From Escherichia phage phiLLS, in sequence record NC_047822.1: 64,000 nt of DNA; one strand, given 5' to 3'. Both the position numbers and the translations under genes were made by a program. Positions 3,866 through 21,707 of this stretch are shown piece after piece; within the stretch, counting starts at the first letter, position 1, and each line of letters opens with the position of its first letter. The notes beneath the pieces are model-generated. The model saw only the letters and a list, made by a program, of their open reading frames with translations, had not been told where the DNA came from and ran no database searches.

Positions 3866-4704
3866 TGCAACAATACTTAAAAATTTTGACAGATGTAATT
3901 TTACTAGGTGAACCACGTAACGATCGTACAGGGACAGGCACAGTTTCAATTTTTGATTCCTATGCTAAGTTCGATCTACGTGAAGGGTTCCCGGCTGTAA
4001 CTACTAAACGCCTGGCCTGGAAATCAGTAGTAGGAGAACTCTTATGGTTCTTGTCTGGTTCCACAAATCTCCATGATCTACGTGTATTCACCTTTGGTCG
4101 TGACGAAGGACAGTGGACCATCTGGACTCCAAATTATGAAGACCAAGCTATAAGTATGGGGTATGATAAGGGTAATCTAGGACCAGTATATGGTAAACAA
4201 TGGCGCAACTTTGGTGGACGAGATCAGATCCTAGAACTCATTGAGGGTCTCAAGAATAATCCACATGGTCGTAGACACCTAGTATCTGCATGGAACGTAG
4301 CTGAACTTGATAAAATGGCATTACCACCCTGTCACTACGGCTTCCAGTGCTATGTAAGTAACGATGGATACCTAGATCTTAAATGGACACAACGTTCTGT
4401 AGATTGTTTCCTCGGTTTACCTTTCAATATTGCTAGTTATGCTTTATTAACGCATATATTAGCAAAACTGACAGGATTAAAACCTCGTTATCTTATCTTT
4501 AGTGGCGGTGATACTCATATCTATAATGACCACATGGAACAGGTAGAAGAACAGGTAAAACGTAAACCTCGTGCTTTACCTACTCTAGTAATGCCAGAGT
4601 TTGTAGATCTTTACGATTTATTAGAAAATAATACGGCAGCTTGGTCCTTCCAGCTTGAAGGATATGATCCGCATCCGGCTCTTAAAGCTAAAATGTCCTC
4701 TTAA
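3865..4704 (+). CDS. thyA: Thymidylate synthase
   Basis: Conserved ThyA motifs (RLAWKSVVGELLWFLSG, active-site PPCHYGFQCYV); 279 aa. Confidence 0.85.
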   Translation: MQQYLKILTDVILLGEPRNDRTGTGTVSIFDSYAKFDLREGFPAVTTKRLAWKSVVGELLWFLSGSTNLHDLRVFTFGRDEGQWTIWTPNYEDQAISMGYDKGNLGPVYGKQWRNFGGRDQILELIEGLKNNPHGRRHLVSAWNVAELDKMALPPCHYGFQCYVSNDGYLDLKWTQRSVDCFLGLPFNIASYALLTHILAKLTGLKPRYLIFSGGDTHIYNDHMEQVEEQVKRKPRALPTLVMPEFVDLYDLLENNTAAWSFQLEGYDPHPALKAKMSS

Positions 4705-11293: not shown

Positions 11294-11322
11294 TTGCTAA
11301 ATGCTTATAAATTCTGTATAAT
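11294..11322 (+). promoter_or_regulatory. T5-type early promoter driving an 0.9-kb non-coding transcript region
   Basis: -35 TTGCTA, 17-bp spacer, -10 TATAAT. Confidence 0.55.
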
Positions 11323-11560
11323 ATATTCATAAATTAGAGAACAGCGAGCCGATTACGCTGAACTTGTCTTAATGTAAGATGCGTCGAGCACTAAGATTCG
11401 TTGAATAGAGTCGGTGGGTTAGTTGTAAAACTAGTACACAGGGGGCGGCAATCCCGGTTAGTGGCTAGAACGTGTAAAATGAGGCGTCTGAAACCTCTCC
11501 CCTAAACTCTTCTCTAATTTATAAATAGTGGGGTGTGGAAATCACTTATGTAGTAACACT

Positions 11561-11632
11561 GCCGTCCTAGTATAATTGGTATTATCAAGCCGTAACCGGT
11601 GGAAGATGTAGGTTCGAATCCTACGGTCGGTA
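11561..11632 (+). tRNA. tRNA-like element (canonical T-arm and acceptor pairing; anticodon arm not resolvable by hand)
   Basis: T-arm gtagg-TTCGAAT-cctac; 6/7 acceptor pairing; no clean anticodon stem. Confidence 0.3.
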
Positions 11633-12135
11633 AGAACTGGATAACTGATGCTTTTAACGTAAAAGCTTCCGAGGTTAGTTGCGCACTGCCTAAACCACGC
11701 GGTAGTTGGTTCCAGACTAACCAACCAGTCTGCTGAATAGTTTTATTACGATTTAACTATGTCCAGGCTAAAGAAGAACTTTAGAAGGTATTCTAGGATA
11801 GTGAAGTTCTTTCTCCATATCGGAGTAGTTTTTCAAGCTATCCACAAAGTGGGAAATGCTGACATGAGAGATGTCACTAATGGTGCACAATAGCACAGGT
11901 AATTCGCGATAACTCCTGTTGAGTAGCAGCAAAAGGCGGGAAGTCATGACCCCAAGCCTAACCGAGTCCTCAATATACCGCAGGACATAACCACTAAGTC
12001 ACCCTGACTTAAACTGGAAAATAATAGACGTTACTGTATTTTGTCTTGAAATACTTAATGAGTGAGACTTATGACTCTCCCGGTATCGTCTGTATTTTTA
12101 AGAGTTTTTTACGAGAGTTCTTAAAAATACTTAAA

Positions 12136-12210
12136 CGGGGTGTAGTCTAAGGGAGAGGCAGGAGTCTTCTAAATTCCTTTATGCAGGTTCGAATCCTGTC
12201 ACCTCGGCCA
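12136..12210 (+). tRNA. tRNA-Arg (anticodon TCT), CCA encoded
   Basis: Acceptor cggggtg/cacctcg, anticodon stem ggagt/attcc with loop CTTCTAA, T-arm gcagg-TTCGAAT-cctgt. Confidence 0.6.
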
Positions 12211-12244: not shown

Positions 12245-13192
12245 ATGTTTGCTACTAAAAATATGAAAGAACTGACTTCTGAGCAGAAAGTAATTCGTAC
12301 TATTAAACGTTGGGGTATTGGTGCTGTAGTTGGTTTAGCAGGTTTAGTCCTAGCTTTTAATTCATATACTATTGTTTCTGATGGTACGGTTAAAACCCAA
12401 ACATTCCTGGGTAAAGTAGACCCTAATCCTGTATTACCTGGTTTTCATCTTGTAAACCCATTTGCATCTTTCGATACTTTTAGTACAAAAGACATTGCTG
12501 TAAAATTAGATAAACTTCAGGTTCCTAGTCAGGATAAGTTTAAATCCACTGTTGACCTGACTGTTATGTTGCAGTTTGATGGTTCTAAGGCACCAATTAA
12601 CCGTATTAACGCAGGTACTCAGGACCAGGCGCTAGACAAGTATGTAACTGAAAAATTACTGTCTACTATTCGTGAGTTTGGTAAATCTGTACCTAAAGCA
12701 CAAGATTTATTTGATGCTAAAATTCAGGCTCAATTGCAAACTGCAATTCAACAGGAAGTTGAAGAGTATGCACGCCCATATGGTTACACAGTTAAGCAGG
12801 TGTTTCTTCAGGATATTACTTTGCCACCAGTAATTATGGAGCAAGTACAAAATACAAAAGTTCGTGAAGAACAAGTTAATGCGGCTAAAGCTGAATTGGC
12901 TCGTGTTGAACAAGAAGCACAGCAGAAAGTCAAACAAGCTGAAGCAGATCGTGAAGCACGTAACAACCAAGCTATCGCTAATGAACGTGACGCCGATGCT
13001 AAGCTGTATGCAGCTAAGAAAGAAGCTGAAGCTAACGCCGCATTGCAACGTACCATTACTCCTGAGATGATTCGTTGGAAGCAATTGGAAGTCGAAATGA
13101 TTCGTGCTCAGAAATATCAAGGTGGTGTACCTCAGACTGTGGTAGGTACTGGCTACGATGGTCAAATGATCATGGATATGCGTAATAAATAA
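12245..13192 (+). CDS. SPFH/band-7 (stomatin/prohibitin/HflC-like) membrane protein
   Basis: N-terminal TM segment, SPFH-like core, C-terminal coiled coil. Confidence 0.5.
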   Translation: MFATKNMKELTSEQKVIRTIKRWGIGAVVGLAGLVLAFNSYTIVSDGTVKTQTFLGKVDPNPVLPGFHLVNPFASFDTFSTKDIAVKLDKLQVPSQDKFKSTVDLTVMLQFDGSKAPINRINAGTQDQALDKYVTEKLLSTIREFGKSVPKAQDLFDAKIQAQLQTAIQQEVEEYARPYGYTVKQVFLQDITLPPVIMEQVQNTKVREEQVNAAKAELARVEQEAQQKVKQAEADREARNNQAIANERDADAKLYAAKKEAEANAALQRTITPEMIRWKQLEVEMIRAQKYQGGVPQTVVGTGYDGQMIMDMRNK

Positions 13193-13216
13193 TATCCGCA
13201 CGTAACATCTGAAGTA

Positions 13217-13250
13217 AGCCCTGCGTTCCCTGGAGAGCGCAGGGCTTTTC
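13217..13250 (+). terminator. Rho-independent terminator
   Basis: Hairpin agccctgcg...cgcagggct followed by TTTTCT. Confidence 0.65.
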
Positions 13251-13516: not shown

Positions 13517-13933
13517 TTAGGAGTTATTACCACCATTTTGAGCTTTTGCAACTTGGCTTTGGCAGAAGCTATTAAACTTACCCATAAGTGATACAAGCTG
13601 TTTCCCATCCTCTGTCTTTGCGAAGTCTTCGAAAAGGGCTAGTACTGCCTGTCCTTCCGCAGAAACCTGCGGTTGTTGGGTTTGTTGCTGAACTTGCTGC
13701 TGAGCCACCTGTTGCTGCATTTGTTGAGGCATTTGCGACTGCCCGCTCATTTGCTGCATCATTTGCATAGGACTCACACTTCCAGGGTTTTGCTGGAGTT
13801 GTTGCTGCATCTGTTGCGCTTCTGCTAAACGCTGTTGCAATTGTTGTAAGTAGGGGTTATCCAGACCCGGAATGGGCTGCTGGGAGCCCCTACTTTGATT
13901 AAGTCCGTTATTTACAAAACCATATTTACTCAT
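13517..13933 (-). CDS. Hypothetical Gln-rich low-complexity protein
   Basis: 138-aa minus-strand ORF, poly-Q/QM repeats; AGGAGG RBS. Confidence 0.5.
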   Translation of the reverse strand: MSKYGFVNNGLNQSRGSQQPIPGLDNPYLQQLQQRLAEAQQMQQQLQQNPGSVSPMQMMQQMSGQSQMPQQMQQQVAQQQVQQQTQQPQVSAEGQAVLALFEDFAKTEDGKQLVSLMGKFNSFCQSQVAKAQNGGNNS

Positions 13934-15839: not shown

Positions 15840-15917
15840 GGTTCTCAAGCTCATATGGTATGAGCACCCGGCTCATAACCGGAAGGTACGTAGGTTCGAA
15901 TCCTCGGGGAGCCACCA
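15840..15917 (+). tRNA. tRNA with anticodon CAT (Met or Ile2)
   Basis: D-stem gctc/gagc, anticodon loop CTCATAA, T-loop TTCGAAT, acceptor with two G-U pairs, CCA encoded. Confidence 0.55.
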
Positions 15918-21247: not shown

Positions 21248-21342
21248 GGTAGGTCAATCCAACGGCTGGCGCTGGACTCCGACTTGAAATCGGTTGATCG
21301 TAGTGATACGGTGTAAGGGTTCGATCCCCTTACCTACCTCCA
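21248..21342 (+). tRNA. tRNA-Ser (anticodon TGA), class II, CCA encoded
   Basis: Perfect acceptor ggtaggt/acctacc, anticodon stem ccga/tcgg with loop CTTGAAA, long variable arm, T-arm aaggg-TTCGATC-ccctt. Confidence 0.55.
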
Positions 21343-21707
21343 AATCTTGGAATATGCCGGAATTGGTAGACGGGACTGCCGAATAGGTTTACTAGGAACA
21401 TCCACTCCTAGAAATATACCTTAAAAGCGGTTGAGTTAAATGGTCTAACTCATGAAGGTTCAAATCCTTCTATTCCTTGATACATCAATGGCTCAAAGTG
21501 TAACGGTGCTATTTGATGCACTTGGAAAGACTTTCCCGACATGCGTTCGGGGGTAAGCTTCTGAGGCTAGAATAGAAGAGTTTCTGGGAGCCGCCACAAT
21601 CGAAAATTCGTACTCGTCTTGAGCTGCGTGCAATAGGAGATAACTTGATTAGTATTCTAGAACATGCTAATTGAGGATGGTTTCGCTAACCCTGCGAGTT
21701 TTCAATT

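What the first reader, a model, noticed from the sequence alone, without database searches (positions are those of the whole stretch)
11340..12135. 800-bp promoter-driven region with no ORF and only one confident tRNA at its end
A consensus early promoter at 11294-11322 is followed by 0.8 kb lacking any ORF with an RBS. It contains one tRNA-like T-arm/acceptor unit (11561-11632) that fails canonical anticodon-arm folding, and nested hairpins around 11700-11740. The transcript may encode one or more stable RNAs of unknown function.
Basis: seen in the sequence. Interest (0 to 1): 0.45.

Follow-up and report, generated by a model that had tools for sequence, protein, structure and literature searches.

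The report
Phage T5 RNAX structured stable RNA
This promoter-driven 0.8-kb stretch with no gene is the counterpart of "RNAX", a stable RNA of unknown function already annotated in phage T5; comparison with related phages shows a highly structured non-coding RNA carrying a tRNA look-alike without an anticodon loop.

Summary
The window is a T5-like phage (Tequintavirus). A TTGCTA-17-TATAAT promoter at 11294-11322 is followed by about 807 nt (11329-12135) with no conserved ORF, ending at tRNA-Arg(UCU) (12136-12210). The same interval is annotated in T5 (NC_005859) and DT57C as "rnaX / RNAX, stable RNA with unknown functions", downstream of "promoter P 16-17".

The new evidence is comparative. Alignments across Demerecviridae show base-pair covariation well above the controls in the central domain (18 of 40 pairs with double changes) and the 3' domain (10 of 61).

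The unit at 11561-11632 scores above Rfam's tRNA threshold. It keeps a covarying acceptor stem and T arm and invariant elbow nucleotides. Its anticodon arm is replaced by a short, covarying hairpin, and no CCA is encoded. It sits on a covarying 12-bp stalk made by its own flanks.

The 5' domain is optional: T5 replaces it with a 6-nt loop. The ends are a 5' stem and a 17-bp UNCG-capped 3' hairpin.

No other Rfam family matches. Function is unknown. The nearest analogues in context are GOLLD and ROOL, the large ornate phage RNAs found beside tRNA islands.

The parts
11294..11322 (+). Sigma-70-type early promoter (TTGCTA-17-TATAAT), equivalent to T5 'promoter P 16-17'. Inferred transcription start is about 11329.
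   Evidence: The start site is inferred from the spacing after the -10 hexamer and from the extent of the T5 promoter feature.
11329..11522 (+). 5' domain. A 13-bp stem P1 (11329-11341 with 11510-11522) encloses a variable multi-hairpin insert (11342-11509).
   Evidence: Self-complementarity and MFE fold and duplex folding across relatives. In T5-type sequences the interior is a 6-nt loop but P1 is kept (R2: a 13-bp hairpin). S124 and YZU-L1 carry matching insertions on both strands. The whole domain is replaced by an HNH endonuclease ORF in smaug, SE24 and mar003J3.
11528..11698 (+). Central domain, a multi-helix junction closed by GUGG/CCAC (11528-11531 with 11695-11698).
   Evidence: RNAalifold and pair counts on alignment A3: 40 pairs, 97.5% of cells paired, 18 pairs with changes on both sides. 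The closing pair G-C becomes A-U in YZU-L1.
11541..11649 (+). Stalk P2 (11541-11554 with 11636-11649, 12 bp with conserved C.C and G.G mismatches) that carries the tRNA-like unit at its tip. The unpaired linkers are AACACU (5') and AGA (3').
   Evidence: Seven of the 12 pairs show compensatory double changes and 99.2% of cells are paired (helix 3).
11561..11632 (+). Anticodon-less tRNA mimic. Acceptor stem 11561-67 with 11625-31 (G1.U72, U5.U68). D arm with U8, A14, G18 and G19. Mini-hairpin GCCG-UAAC-CGGU (11589-11600) in place of the anticodon arm. T arm 11608-12 with 11620-24 and loop UUCGAAU. Discriminator A11632. No encoded CCA.
   Evidence: Rfam tRNA 35.5 bits; not called by ARAGORN. Covariation in the acceptor stem, the T stem and the mini-hairpin. 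Present in Markadamsvirinae, Sugarlandvirus and Mccorquodalevirinae. Annotated variously as tRNA-OTHER, Ser, Sec or Leu in public records.
11650..11725 (+). Three conserved hairpins: GCUUU(U)-AACGU-(A)AAAGC (11650-11666), GGU(U)AGU-UGCGC-ACUGCC (11673-11690) and GUUGGUU-CCAGACU-AACCAAC (11705-11725).
   Evidence: helix 7: 3 of 5 pairs with double changes. The other two were compared by eye in the alignments: GGCAGU/ACUGCC in smaug, GACAGU/ACUGUC in SB13, CUAGG/CCUAG in AAS21, and GUUGAUU/AAUCAAC in SB13 and YZU-L1.
11726..11847 (+). Middle region. Long hairpin GAAGAACUUU-AGAA...UUCU...GAAGUUCUUU (11773-11812), CUCC/GGAG (11813-16 with 11822-25), and sequence blocks that are invariant across the alignment, including Sugarlandvirus.
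   Evidence: Alignment A4: 40 predicted pairs, 4 with double changes. Diversity is low here, so support is weaker.
11848..12135 (+). Conserved 3' domain. Helices: 11849-52 with 11991-94; 11860-65 with 11871-76; 11881-93 with 11916-28; 11934-40 with 11951-59 (10-nt loop holding the invariant palindrome GUCAUGAC at 11943-50); 11966-71 with 11980-86; 11996-12001 with 12005-10; long-range 12026-35 with 12082-91. A terminal 17-bp hairpin (12092-12109 with 12114-12130) with a UNCG-type tetraloop lies 5 nt before tRNA-Arg.
   Evidence: Alignment A2, 29 distinct sequences: 61 pairs, 98.9% of cells paired, 10 pairs with double changes. Matches in 474 phage records; 383 cover at least 80% of the domain. 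Three unrelated sequence versions of 12023-12091 keep the same helix layout (by eye). Terminal loop variants are UACG, UGCG, UUCG and UAUA.
12136..12210 (+). tRNA-Arg(UCU) with encoded CCA. Its 5' end would define the 3' end of RNAX if RNase P cleaves there.
   Evidence: ARAGORN; Rfam 49.3 bits; annotated in T5.
12245..13244 (+). Downstream SPFH/Band-7 gene (12245-13192) and the first +-strand terminator-like site (13228-13244). Probably the same transcription unit.
   Evidence: Pfam Band_7, E = 2e-17; terminator scan. T5 annotates a bidirectional terminator at the equivalent place. Co-transcription is inferred.

Best explanation
The region is the ortholog of bacteriophage T5 RNAX. It is a non-coding RNA of about 0.8 kb, transcribed early from a strong sigma-70 promoter together with tRNA-Arg(UCU) and probably the SPFH gene downstream.

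It folds into a chain of conserved domains. (1) An optional 5' domain is closed by a stem that begins at or near the 5' end. (2) A central junction has its longest arm as a 12-bp stalk tipped by a tRNA mimic. The mimic keeps the acceptor/T-arm minihelix and the D-loop/T-loop elbow but has a short closed hairpin instead of an anticodon arm. (3) A conserved 3' domain of about 290 nt ends in a long UNCG-capped hairpin.

Inferred mechanism: RNase P cutting at the 5' end of tRNA-Arg releases RNAX with a structured 3' end. The base-paired 5' end and the 3' hairpin make it resistant to RNase E and to 3' exonucleases, so it accumulates as a 'stable RNA'. RNase P may also cut at the tRNA mimic, but the stalk would hold the pieces together.

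The RNA acts as RNA, not as a decoding tRNA and not as mRNA. The most likely role, which is speculative, is as a scaffold or decoy that presents a tRNA-shaped handle and conserved loops to host or phage tRNA-binding factors during early infection.

Shown here: homology to RNAX, absence of conserved coding, and conserved +-strand RNA structure. Inferred: the processing sites, the basis of stability and the role.
For: Identity:
- 99.6% identity to T5-like phages, and 93-95% identity over 78% of the query to T5 and DT57C, where the feature under the match is 'rnaX: RNAX'.
- T5 and DT57C annotate misc_RNA rnaX, 'stable RNA with unknown functions', between promoter P 16-17 and tRNA-Arg.

Non-coding:
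- No ORF survives in relatives.

Structure:
- Central domain: 18 of 40 pairs with double changes, against 7.8 +/- 1.7 in shuffles (0 of 500 reach it) and 1-7 in slid controls; 97.5% of cells paired.
- 3' domain: 10 of 61 pairs, against 6.3 +/- 0.9 (0 of 500) and 0-4 in slid controls; 98.9% of cells paired.
- G.U is the commonest pair at several positions. These would be C.A on the other strand, so the structure belongs to the + strand, which is the promoter's direction.

tRNA mimic:
- Above Rfam's tRNA gathering score.
- Invariant T8, A14, G18, G19 and T-loop.
- The anticodon slot is a 3- to 6-bp hairpin with a 3- to 8-nt loop in every lineage examined (by eye).

Constraint and ends:
- Core identity to Epseptimavirus is 79-84%, against 82-91% for flanking genes.
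- P1 is retained when its interior is deleted.
Against: - No expression data were available. 'Stable RNA' rests on the depositors' note in the T5 and DT57C records, and no paper describing RNAX was found in the searchable library.
- The tRNA mimic is missing from three relatives (L023, L024, L030) that keep the rest, so it is dispensable in some lineages.
- The 5' domain is absent from T5 itself.
- The whole-RNA MFE is only modestly below shuffles (z = -1.87 from 20 shuffles).
- Sequences cluster into a few clades, so the number of independent compensatory events is smaller than the cell counts suggest.
- Nothing here identifies a binding partner or a phenotype.
- The upstream YqeY-like gene is also present in the phages that lack the mimic, so that link has no support.
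Confidence: 0.8

Rival explanations
1. The region is evolutionary debris. It would be a decayed tRNA gene (a pseudo-tRNA) plus remnants of old genes and homing-endonuclease scars, serving only as a long leader or spacer for tRNA-Arg.
For: - The region is a mosaic. Modules are swapped, deleted or interrupted by HNH and T5orf172/GIY-YIG-type ORFs in relatives.
- The tRNA-like unit lacks an anticodon loop and a CCA.
- T5 lacks the 5' domain, and three phages lack the tRNA-like unit.
Against: - Debris should not keep helices through compensatory double substitutions in 28 pairs of two domains.
- It should not keep invariant tertiary-contact nucleotides in the mimic.
- It should not stay about as conserved as the neighbouring genes.
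- The replacement for the anticodon arm is itself a covarying hairpin in every lineage, which does not look like random decay.
Confidence: 0.07
2. It is not one large RNA but a precursor. It would be cut at the tRNA mimic and elsewhere into several separate small stable RNAs with independent roles, like the 70-170-nt RNAs (RNAI, RNAIII, RNAIV, RNA1, RNA2, RNA2H, RNA3) annotated elsewhere in the T5 tRNA region.
For: - T5 annotates seven other small stable or tRNA-like RNAs in the same gene cluster.
- The tRNA mimic has the features RNase P recognises, with unpaired linkers on both sides.
- No helix was found joining the central domain to the 3' domain.
- The domains are gained and lost independently.
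Against: - The T5 depositors annotated a single 719-nt RNA.
- The P2 stalk would keep the two halves paired after excision of the mimic.
- This rival is a variant of the main explanation rather than a contradiction of it.
Confidence: 0.3
3. It is a cis-acting 5' leader that controls expression of the downstream SPFH/Band-7 gene or the maturation of tRNA-Arg, for example a protein- or ligand-binding leader, rather than a trans-acting RNA.
For: - No +-strand terminator-like site lies between the promoter and the end of the SPFH gene.
- The order RNAX, then tRNA-Arg, then the SPFH gene (with a small ORF between them in some phages) is conserved in most relatives examined.
Against: - A tRNA, which RNase P would cut out, separates the RNA from the gene.
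- In many relatives a further ORF or an endonuclease gene lies in between.
- A length of 0.6-0.8 kb with more than 15 helices is far beyond known leaders.
- No Rfam riboswitch or leader matched at E <= 10.
Confidence: 0.1
4. The region encodes one or more small proteins. Public annotations place 34-60-aa 'hypothetical proteins' here.
For: Gene callers annotate ORFs at the equivalents of 11401-11505 (+), 11542-11724 (-) and 11768-11947 (-) in Baret, PMBT29 and others.
Against: - Every ORF is absent, frameshifted or stop-interrupted in relatives that keep the nucleotide sequence. ORF 11759-11893 is broken in T5 (89% identity) and mar003J3 (99%). ORF 11768-11947 (-) is broken in T5 and mar003J3. 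ORF 11401-11505 is absent in T5 and DT57C.
- The starts are TTG or GTG, or lack a Shine-Dalgarno sequence.
Confidence: 0.03
5. The conserved hairpins act at the DNA level, for example as an origin, nick site, packaging signal or endonuclease target, rather than in RNA.
For: - T5 DNA carries site-specific nicks, one of them annotated about 1 kb downstream.
- Homing-endonuclease genes insert precisely at module borders, for example between the terminal hairpin and tRNA-Arg.
Against: - Many conserved pairs are G.U on the + strand, which would be C.A mismatches on the other strand or in cruciform DNA.
- The element lies directly behind a strong promoter and is annotated as RNA in T5.
- tRNA-type tertiary nucleotides are conserved.
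Confidence: 0.03

Closest known systems
Bacteriophage T5 rnaX / RNAX (misc_RNA T5s08, NC_005859.1 40848-41566; also annotated in DT57C and DT571/2)
   Same: - Same position: after the YqeY-like gene and promoter P 16-17, ending at tRNA-Arg(UCU).
- 93-95% nucleotide identity over the shared 630 nt.
- Same tRNA mimic and the same 3' domain.
   Different: - The window's copy is 813 nt, against 719 nt in T5 and 636 nt in DT57C.
- It carries a roughly 165-nt interior in the 5' stem that T5 and DT57C lack.
- T5 has its own roughly 85-nt insertion, flanked by a direct repeat, in the 3' domain.
- The public record gives no structure and no function.
GOLLD and ROOL: large ornate RNAs of phages and prophages (Rfam families; cryo-EM in PMC12286853)
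   Same: - Size class of 0.6-0.8 kb.
- Encoded by phages next to tRNA islands.
- Many covarying helices.
- For GOLLD, a universally conserved 3' region with a less conserved 5' region, and tRNAs sometimes inside a linker. RNAX has a conserved 3' domain, an optional 5' domain and an embedded tRNA-like unit.
   Different: - No match to either Rfam model at E <= 10, so there is no evidence of homology.
- The hosts of RNAX are virulent T5-like phages only; there were 0 hits in 185,579 bacterial and archaeal genomes for a 3'-domain motif.
- Oligomerisation was not tested. The only hints are a palindromic GUCAUGAC loop and palindromic UCGCGA / CUCGAG / CGCGCG loop variants.
Canonical tRNA (Rfam RF00005)
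   Same: - 7-bp acceptor stem, D arm with G18 and G19, 5-bp T stem with UUCGAAU loop, U8 and A14.
- Overall length of 72 nt.
- Scores above the family threshold.
   Different: - No 5-7-5 anticodon arm. A short stem with a 3- to 8-nt loop takes its place in all lineages.
- G1.U72 or G1.A72, and U5.U68 in most sequences.
- No encoded CCA.
- Embedded on a stalk formed by its own flanks.
- Not called by ARAGORN.
YrlA / bacterial Y RNAs (tRNA-mimicking RNAs bound by Ro60/Rsr). Their properties are recalled from my own knowledge of Chen et al. 2014 and Wang et al. 2018 and were not re-read here.
   Same: A non-coding RNA in which a tRNA-shaped module with conserved D and T arms is joined to a helical stalk. 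Some are phage-encoded.
   Different: - In YrlA the stalk continues from the anticodon stem and the acceptor end is closed. Here the stalk continues from the acceptor end and the anticodon position is closed.
- No rsr gene is nearby.
- No Rfam Y-RNA-type hit.
Phage T4 'species 1' and 'species 2' stable RNAs in its tRNA gene cluster (from my own knowledge; not checked here)
   Same: Stable, non-tRNA RNAs of unknown function that are co-transcribed and co-processed with phage tRNAs.
   Different: They are much smaller, and no sequence relationship was tested.

Membership tests
T5 RNAX (annotated stable RNA) | Lies between the YqeY-like gene with promoter P 16-17 and tRNA-Arg(UCU), on the same strand. 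| tested here: met
T5 RNAX (annotated stable RNA) | Nucleotide homology to the T5 and DT57C rnaX features. | tested here: met
   92.8% identity (T5) and 95.4% (DT57C) over query positions 183-813. The feature under the match is 'rnaX: RNAX'.
T5 RNAX (annotated stable RNA) | Accumulates as a stable RNA in infected cells. | not testable with these tools
   Only the depositors' note in NC_005859 and KM979354. No paper was found.
tRNA (RF00005) | Score at or above Rfam's gathering threshold. | tested here: met
   35.5 bits against 29. Homologs score 29.3-39.2 bits.
tRNA (RF00005) | Anticodon arm: a 5-bp stem with a 7-nt loop that presents an anticodon. | tested here: not met
   cmscan skips the arm as an 18-nt insertion. 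ARAGORN makes no call. In all 17 variants the slot forms a short hairpin with a 3- to 8-nt loop.
tRNA (RF00005) | Acceptor stem, T arm and elbow nucleotides (U8, A14, G18, G19, T-loop). | tested here: met
   The nucleotides are invariant in A1. Covariation is seen in the acceptor stem (3 of 5 pairs) and the T stem (2 of 5 pairs).
tRNA (RF00005) | A 3' CCA end, encoded or added, and aminoacylation. | not testable with these tools
   CCA is not encoded: the sequence after discriminator A11632 is AGAAC. Whether it is added cannot be tested here.
GOLLD / ROOL | Match to the Rfam covariance model. | tested here: not met
   No hit at E <= 1 on 16 kb or at E <= 10 on 961 nt.
GOLLD / ROOL | A large, multi-helix RNA encoded by a phage next to a tRNA island. 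| tested here: met
   807 nt, more than 15 supported helices, at the edge of a cluster of 21 tRNA genes. This is a resemblance, not membership.
GOLLD / ROOL | RNA-only homo-oligomeric assembly. | not testable with these tools
   Only palindromic loop motifs serve as a lead.
tmRNA | A tRNA-like domain together with a tag-peptide reading frame. | tested here: not met
   ARAGORN finds no tmRNA in the window, and there is no Rfam tmRNA hit.
YrlA / Y RNA | A tRNA-like module joined to the rest through its anticodon stem, encoded next to rsr. | tested here: not met
   The topology is the reverse: the stalk continues from the acceptor end. The neighbours are a YqeY-like gene and an SPFH gene. The defining features of this family are taken from memory.

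The most novel reading that the evidence does not exclude
RNAX would be the founding member of a new, uncurated class of large ornate phage RNAs. It would be functionally analogous to GOLLD and ROOL: linked to a tRNA island, with a conserved 3' core, a variable 5' region and an embedded tRNA-shaped module. It might self-associate through its palindromic loops (GUCAUGAC at 11943-50; UCGCGA, CUCGAG or CGCGCG in the loop at about 11902-11909). The anticodon-less tRNA mimic on a stalk would be the handle through which it captures or decoys a tRNA-binding host factor, for example a tRNA-directed defence nuclease or a processing or modification enzyme.
Probability: 0.15. Interest if true: 0.75.

Novelty: already known. 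Interest (0 to 1): 0.4.

Why it matters
T5 is a classic model phage. Its record lists eight 'stable RNAs with unknown functions' in the tRNA region, and RNAX is the largest. Most T5-like genomes leave this interval blank or fill it with spurious 'hypothetical proteins' and 'tRNA-OTHER/Ser/Sec/Leu' calls.

Three results give concrete handles for experiments and for a curated RNA family:
- The interval is a covariation-supported, multi-domain RNA.
- Its tRNA-like unit is a conserved anticodon-less mimic on a stalk.
- The element is found across the sampled Demerecviridae (three lineages) and was not found in bacterial genomes.

It also adds a tractable E. coli phage example to the unexplained association between large structured RNAs and phage tRNA islands.

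Tried and rejected
- **Rfam.** Searched at permissive thresholds on the region and on 11 related loci. Only tRNA-type hits appeared. There was no riboswitch, ribozyme, intron, tmRNA, Y RNA, GOLLD or ROOL.
- **Literature.** Searches for T5 stable RNAs and RNAX found nothing relevant in the searchable library.
- **Metagenome scan.** The pattern ACACUGCC...GGUUCGARUCC was too unspecific: 118 matches, nearly all ordinary tRNAs, and only L086 and L162 were real homologs.
- **IMG/VR and genome scans.** IMG/VR added few new sequences beyond known isolates. The bacterial and archaeal genome scan for a 3'-domain motif gave 0 hits.
- **Small-protein hypothesis.** Rejected by ORF conservation.
- **Paralogs.** A self-BLAST of RNAX against the 64-kb window found only T-arm similarity to real tRNAs.
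- **Link to the YqeY-like protein.** The upstream gene (Pfam YqeY, 25.4 bits, below the cutoff of 27) is also present in phages that lack the mimic, so a functional link is not supported.
- **RNAalifold's helix 11532-36 with 11683-87** competes with the local hairpin 11673-90. The hairpin has better covariation by eye but could not be counted column by column because of a bulge shift.
- **The small hairpin at 11533-11543** has two competing registers and was left unresolved.
Full report
**What the window is**

The 961 bases around the finding are 99.6% identical to T5-like phages such as Salmonella phage LVR16A and phage NBEco001 (Tequintavirus, Demerecviridae). ARAGORN finds 21 tRNA genes downstream, which is the typical T5 tRNA island. 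The first of them is tRNA-Arg(tct) at 12136-12210.

**Checking the observation**

- **Promoter.** A TTGCTA-17-TATAAT site lies at 11294-11322, matching 10 of 12 consensus positions. The count of promoter-like sites in the scanned 3 kb is not above chance (4 against 6.9 in shuffles). This site, however, corresponds to the promoter annotated in T5 as 'promoter P 16-17'; the first 47 nt from 11294 are identical in T5.
- **ORFs.** Between the promoter and tRNA-Arg the largest ORFs are 34-60 aa. I aligned the interval from 15 relatives and translated each ORF's counterpart. Every one is missing, frameshifted or interrupted by stops in phages that otherwise keep the nucleotide sequence. For example, ORF 11759-11893 is broken in T5 at 89% identity and in mar003J3 at 99%.
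- **tRNA-like unit.** Rfam's tRNA model hits 11561-11632 at 35.5 bits (threshold 29), and the alignment skips the anticodon arm as an 18-nt insertion. ARAGORN does not call it.
- **'Nested hairpins'.** One of the two is real and conserved: 11705-11725, with G-C changing to A-U in SB13 and YZU-L1. The overlapping second one is not conserved.

The likely transcript start is about 11329.

**What it is**

A distant-mode search showed that in T5 (NC_005859.1) and DT57C the feature under the match is 'rnaX: RNAX'. The T5 record annotates a 719-nt misc_RNA, 'stable RNA with unknown functions', running from promoter P 16-17 to tRNA-Arg. DT57C has a 636-nt equivalent. T5 lists seven further small 'stable' or 'tRNA-like' RNAs in the same cluster.

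The finding is thus the ortholog of a known but uncharacterised RNA. Other public records leave the interval empty. Some fill it with 'hypothetical proteins', and some label the tRNA-like unit tRNA-OTHER, Ser, Sec or Leu.

**Mosaic organisation**

Comparison with relatives from Tequintavirus, Epseptimavirus, Sugarlandvirus, Pantoea phage AAS21 and Pectobacterium phage My1 shows separable modules.

- **The 5' module.** Its ends (11329-11341 and 11510-11522) form a 13-bp stem, P1. T5-type sequences keep the stem but have a 6-nt loop in place of the roughly 165-nt interior. S124 and YZU-L1 carry matching insertions on both strands. In smaug, SE24 and mar003J3 the whole 5' module is replaced by an HNH endonuclease gene.
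- **Endonuclease insertions.** Further endonuclease-like ORFs sit exactly between the terminal hairpin and tRNA-Arg in S124, YZU-L1, TrudiRoth, SB10 and My1 (T5orf172/GIY-YIG type in My1).
- **The conserved core.** This is 11524-12135. The 3' domain alone matches 474 phage records, and 383 of them cover at least 80% of it. A 3'-domain motif has no match in 185,579 bacterial and archaeal genomes.

**Evidence for RNA structure**

- **Central domain** (alignment A3, 20 distinct sequences). RNAalifold predicts 40 pairs, and 97.5% of cells are paired. Eighteen pairs have changes on both sides, against 7.8 +/- 1.7 in column shuffles (0 of 500 reach it) and 1-7 when partners are slid by 1-3 columns.
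- **3' domain** (A2, 29 distinct sequences). There are 61 pairs, and 98.9% of cells are paired. Ten pairs have double changes, against 6.3 +/- 0.9 (0 of 500) and 0-4 in slid controls.
- **Middle region.** Less diversity is available here: 4 of 40 pairs have double changes, but several blocks are invariant across the alignment, which includes a Sugarlandvirus sequence.
- **Strand.** At several positions G.U is the commonest pair, so the structure is on the + strand, which is the transcribed one.
- **The 12023-12091 segment.** It exists in three unrelated sequence versions. By eye, each forms a long-range helix with one internal mismatch that encloses two hairpins and an invariant CUUAAU linker.
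- **Conservation.** Nucleotide identity of the core to Epseptimavirus (79-84%) is close to that of the flanking genes (82-91%).
- **Caveat.** The sequences fall into a few clades, so independent events are fewer than the cell counts suggest. No phylogeny-aware test was available.

**The tRNA-like unit**

Seventeen distinct variants were aligned.

- **Acceptor stem.** It covaries: 4-69 G-C to C-G in My1, 6-67 C-G to U-A in DT57C, and 7-66 C-G to U-A in AAS21 and My1.
- **T stem.** It also covaries: GUAGG/CCUAC, GCAGG/CCUGC and GUGGG/CCCAC.
- **Elbow.** U8, A14, G18, G19 and the UUCGAAU T-loop are invariant, so the tRNA elbow should form.
- **Anticodon slot.** It keeps roughly its length (15-18 nt) but forms a short closed hairpin: GCCG-UAAC-CGGU here, a GNRA-capped stem in AAS21, and GUACC...GGUAC in My1. 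Pair 70/79 switches C-G to G-C in five sequences.
- **Ends.** No CCA is encoded. Pair 1-72 is G.U or G.A.
- **The stalk.** The unit's flanks pair with each other: 11541-11554 with 11636-11649, 12 bp with conserved C.C and G.G mismatches. Seven of these 12 pairs show compensatory changes. The mimic therefore sits on a stalk inside a junction closed by GUGG/CCAC (11528-31 with 11695-98).
- **Not universal.** Three relatives (L023, L024, L030) lack the mimic. In L023 and L030 a hairpin of about 45 nt takes its place.

**How it most likely works**

Shown here:
- It is a non-coding, structurally constrained +-strand RNA behind a strong early promoter, ending at a tRNA.

Inferred:
- RNase P cleavage at the 5' end of tRNA-Arg creates the RNAX 3' end. 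That end lies 5 nt after a 17-bp hairpin (12092-12130) whose loop varies among UACG, UGCG, UUCG and UAUA.
- The 5' end is buried in P1. Both features would protect the RNA from decay, which fits the 'stable RNA' note.
- RNase P could also cut at the mimic, but the stalk would hold the halves together.

Whether one RNA or several accumulate cannot be decided here. The biological role is unknown. My preferred guess, at low confidence, is that the RNA presents a tRNA-shaped handle and conserved loops to tRNA-binding factors.

The upstream YqeY-like protein (Pfam YqeY, 25.4 bits, just below the cutoff) is an obvious candidate partner. It is, however, also present in phages without the mimic, so there is no comparative support for that idea.

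**Comparison with what is known**

- It is a member of the T5 RNAX locus by position and by homology.
- It is not a canonical tRNA, because the anticodon arm test fails. It is not a tmRNA, and it matches no other Rfam family.
- It resembles GOLLD and ROOL in context and scale. Those are large ornate RNAs of phages, often near tRNA islands. GOLLD has a conserved 3' region, a variable 5' region, and sometimes tRNAs in a linker (PMC12286853). There is no model match, so this is an analogy only.
- Two loops carry palindromes. GUCAUGAC (11943-50) is invariant in a 10-nt loop. A second loop reads UCGCGA in the window, CUCGAG in SB13 and YZU-L1, and CGCGCG in the T5-like phage Kenya-K36. These could mediate self-association. 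An 8-nt palindrome in one of about a dozen loops is only weakly improbable, so I treat this as a lead.

**Verdict**

As an entity it is already known from annotation. Its structure, its anticodon-less tRNA mimic on a stalk and its distribution are new detail that makes an old open question testable. Interest is moderate.

Noticed in passing
window 15840-15914 (+): Rfam's tRNA model scores 40.3 bits here, directly after tRNA-Ser(gct), but ARAGORN does not call it. In DT57C and T5 the equivalent gene is annotated tRNA-Ile(CAU).
   Followed up: partly
window 21248-21338 and 21410-21478 (+): Two sub-threshold tRNA-type hits: tRNA-Sec model at 38.3 bits against a threshold of 47, and tRNA model at 25.2 bits against 29. 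They lie upstream of tRNA-His, where T5 annotates the 'tRNA-like stable RNA' RNA1 and the stable RNAs RNAI and RNAIII. These are further uncharacterised RNAs of the same cluster.
   Followed up: no
L004 (T5), roughly locus 2510-2575, inside the 3' domain: T5 has its own insertion of about 85 nt. It is flanked by a direct repeat of AGUCACCUUGAC(U/A)UAAACUGGAA, which duplicates the hairpin equivalent to window 11996-12019.
   Followed up: no
L027 2167-2676, L032 2331-2840, L188 and L190 1190-1699, L065 2542-3087; L028 717-1199, L062 817-1299: Free-standing endonuclease-type ORFs are inserted exactly at RNAX module borders: between the terminal hairpin and tRNA-Arg, or in place of the 5' domain. 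smaug's is HNH_3 and My1's is T5orf172/MUG113. The 169-aa S124-type protein has no Pfam match.
   Followed up: partly
L023 about 3922-3970 and L030 about 1719-1765: In these Epseptimavirus-type phages the tRNA mimic is replaced by a hairpin of about 45 nt (GCCAGAUGCUCACAGGCUGACAUUGAGC...UCUGG). The flanking AACACUGCC and AAAGAAUCGGAUAACUC are kept.
   Followed up: no
window 11770-11784 and 11798-11807: AAAGAAGAACUUUAG is invariant in all 16 aligned sequences, and GAUAGUGAAG nearly so. The set includes a Sugarlandvirus sequence whose surroundings have diverged. This degree of conservation is unusual and unexplained.
   Followed up: no
window 13517-13933 (-): A 138-aa ORF that is very rich in glutamine (runs of QQ and QQQ), on the opposite strand downstream of the SPFH gene. 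It is the counterpart of a T5 hypothetical protein.
   Followed up: no
L081 and L130 (metagenome contigs of 182 kb and 349 kb): Both have a match to the loose search pattern that ends ...GGUUCGAGUCCCUCCGCUGGAAAGAAUCAGG. Its 3' tail resembles the RNAX mimic's trailer (GGAAAGAAUCAG). The body does not look like the mimic, so this is probably chance.
   Followed up: no
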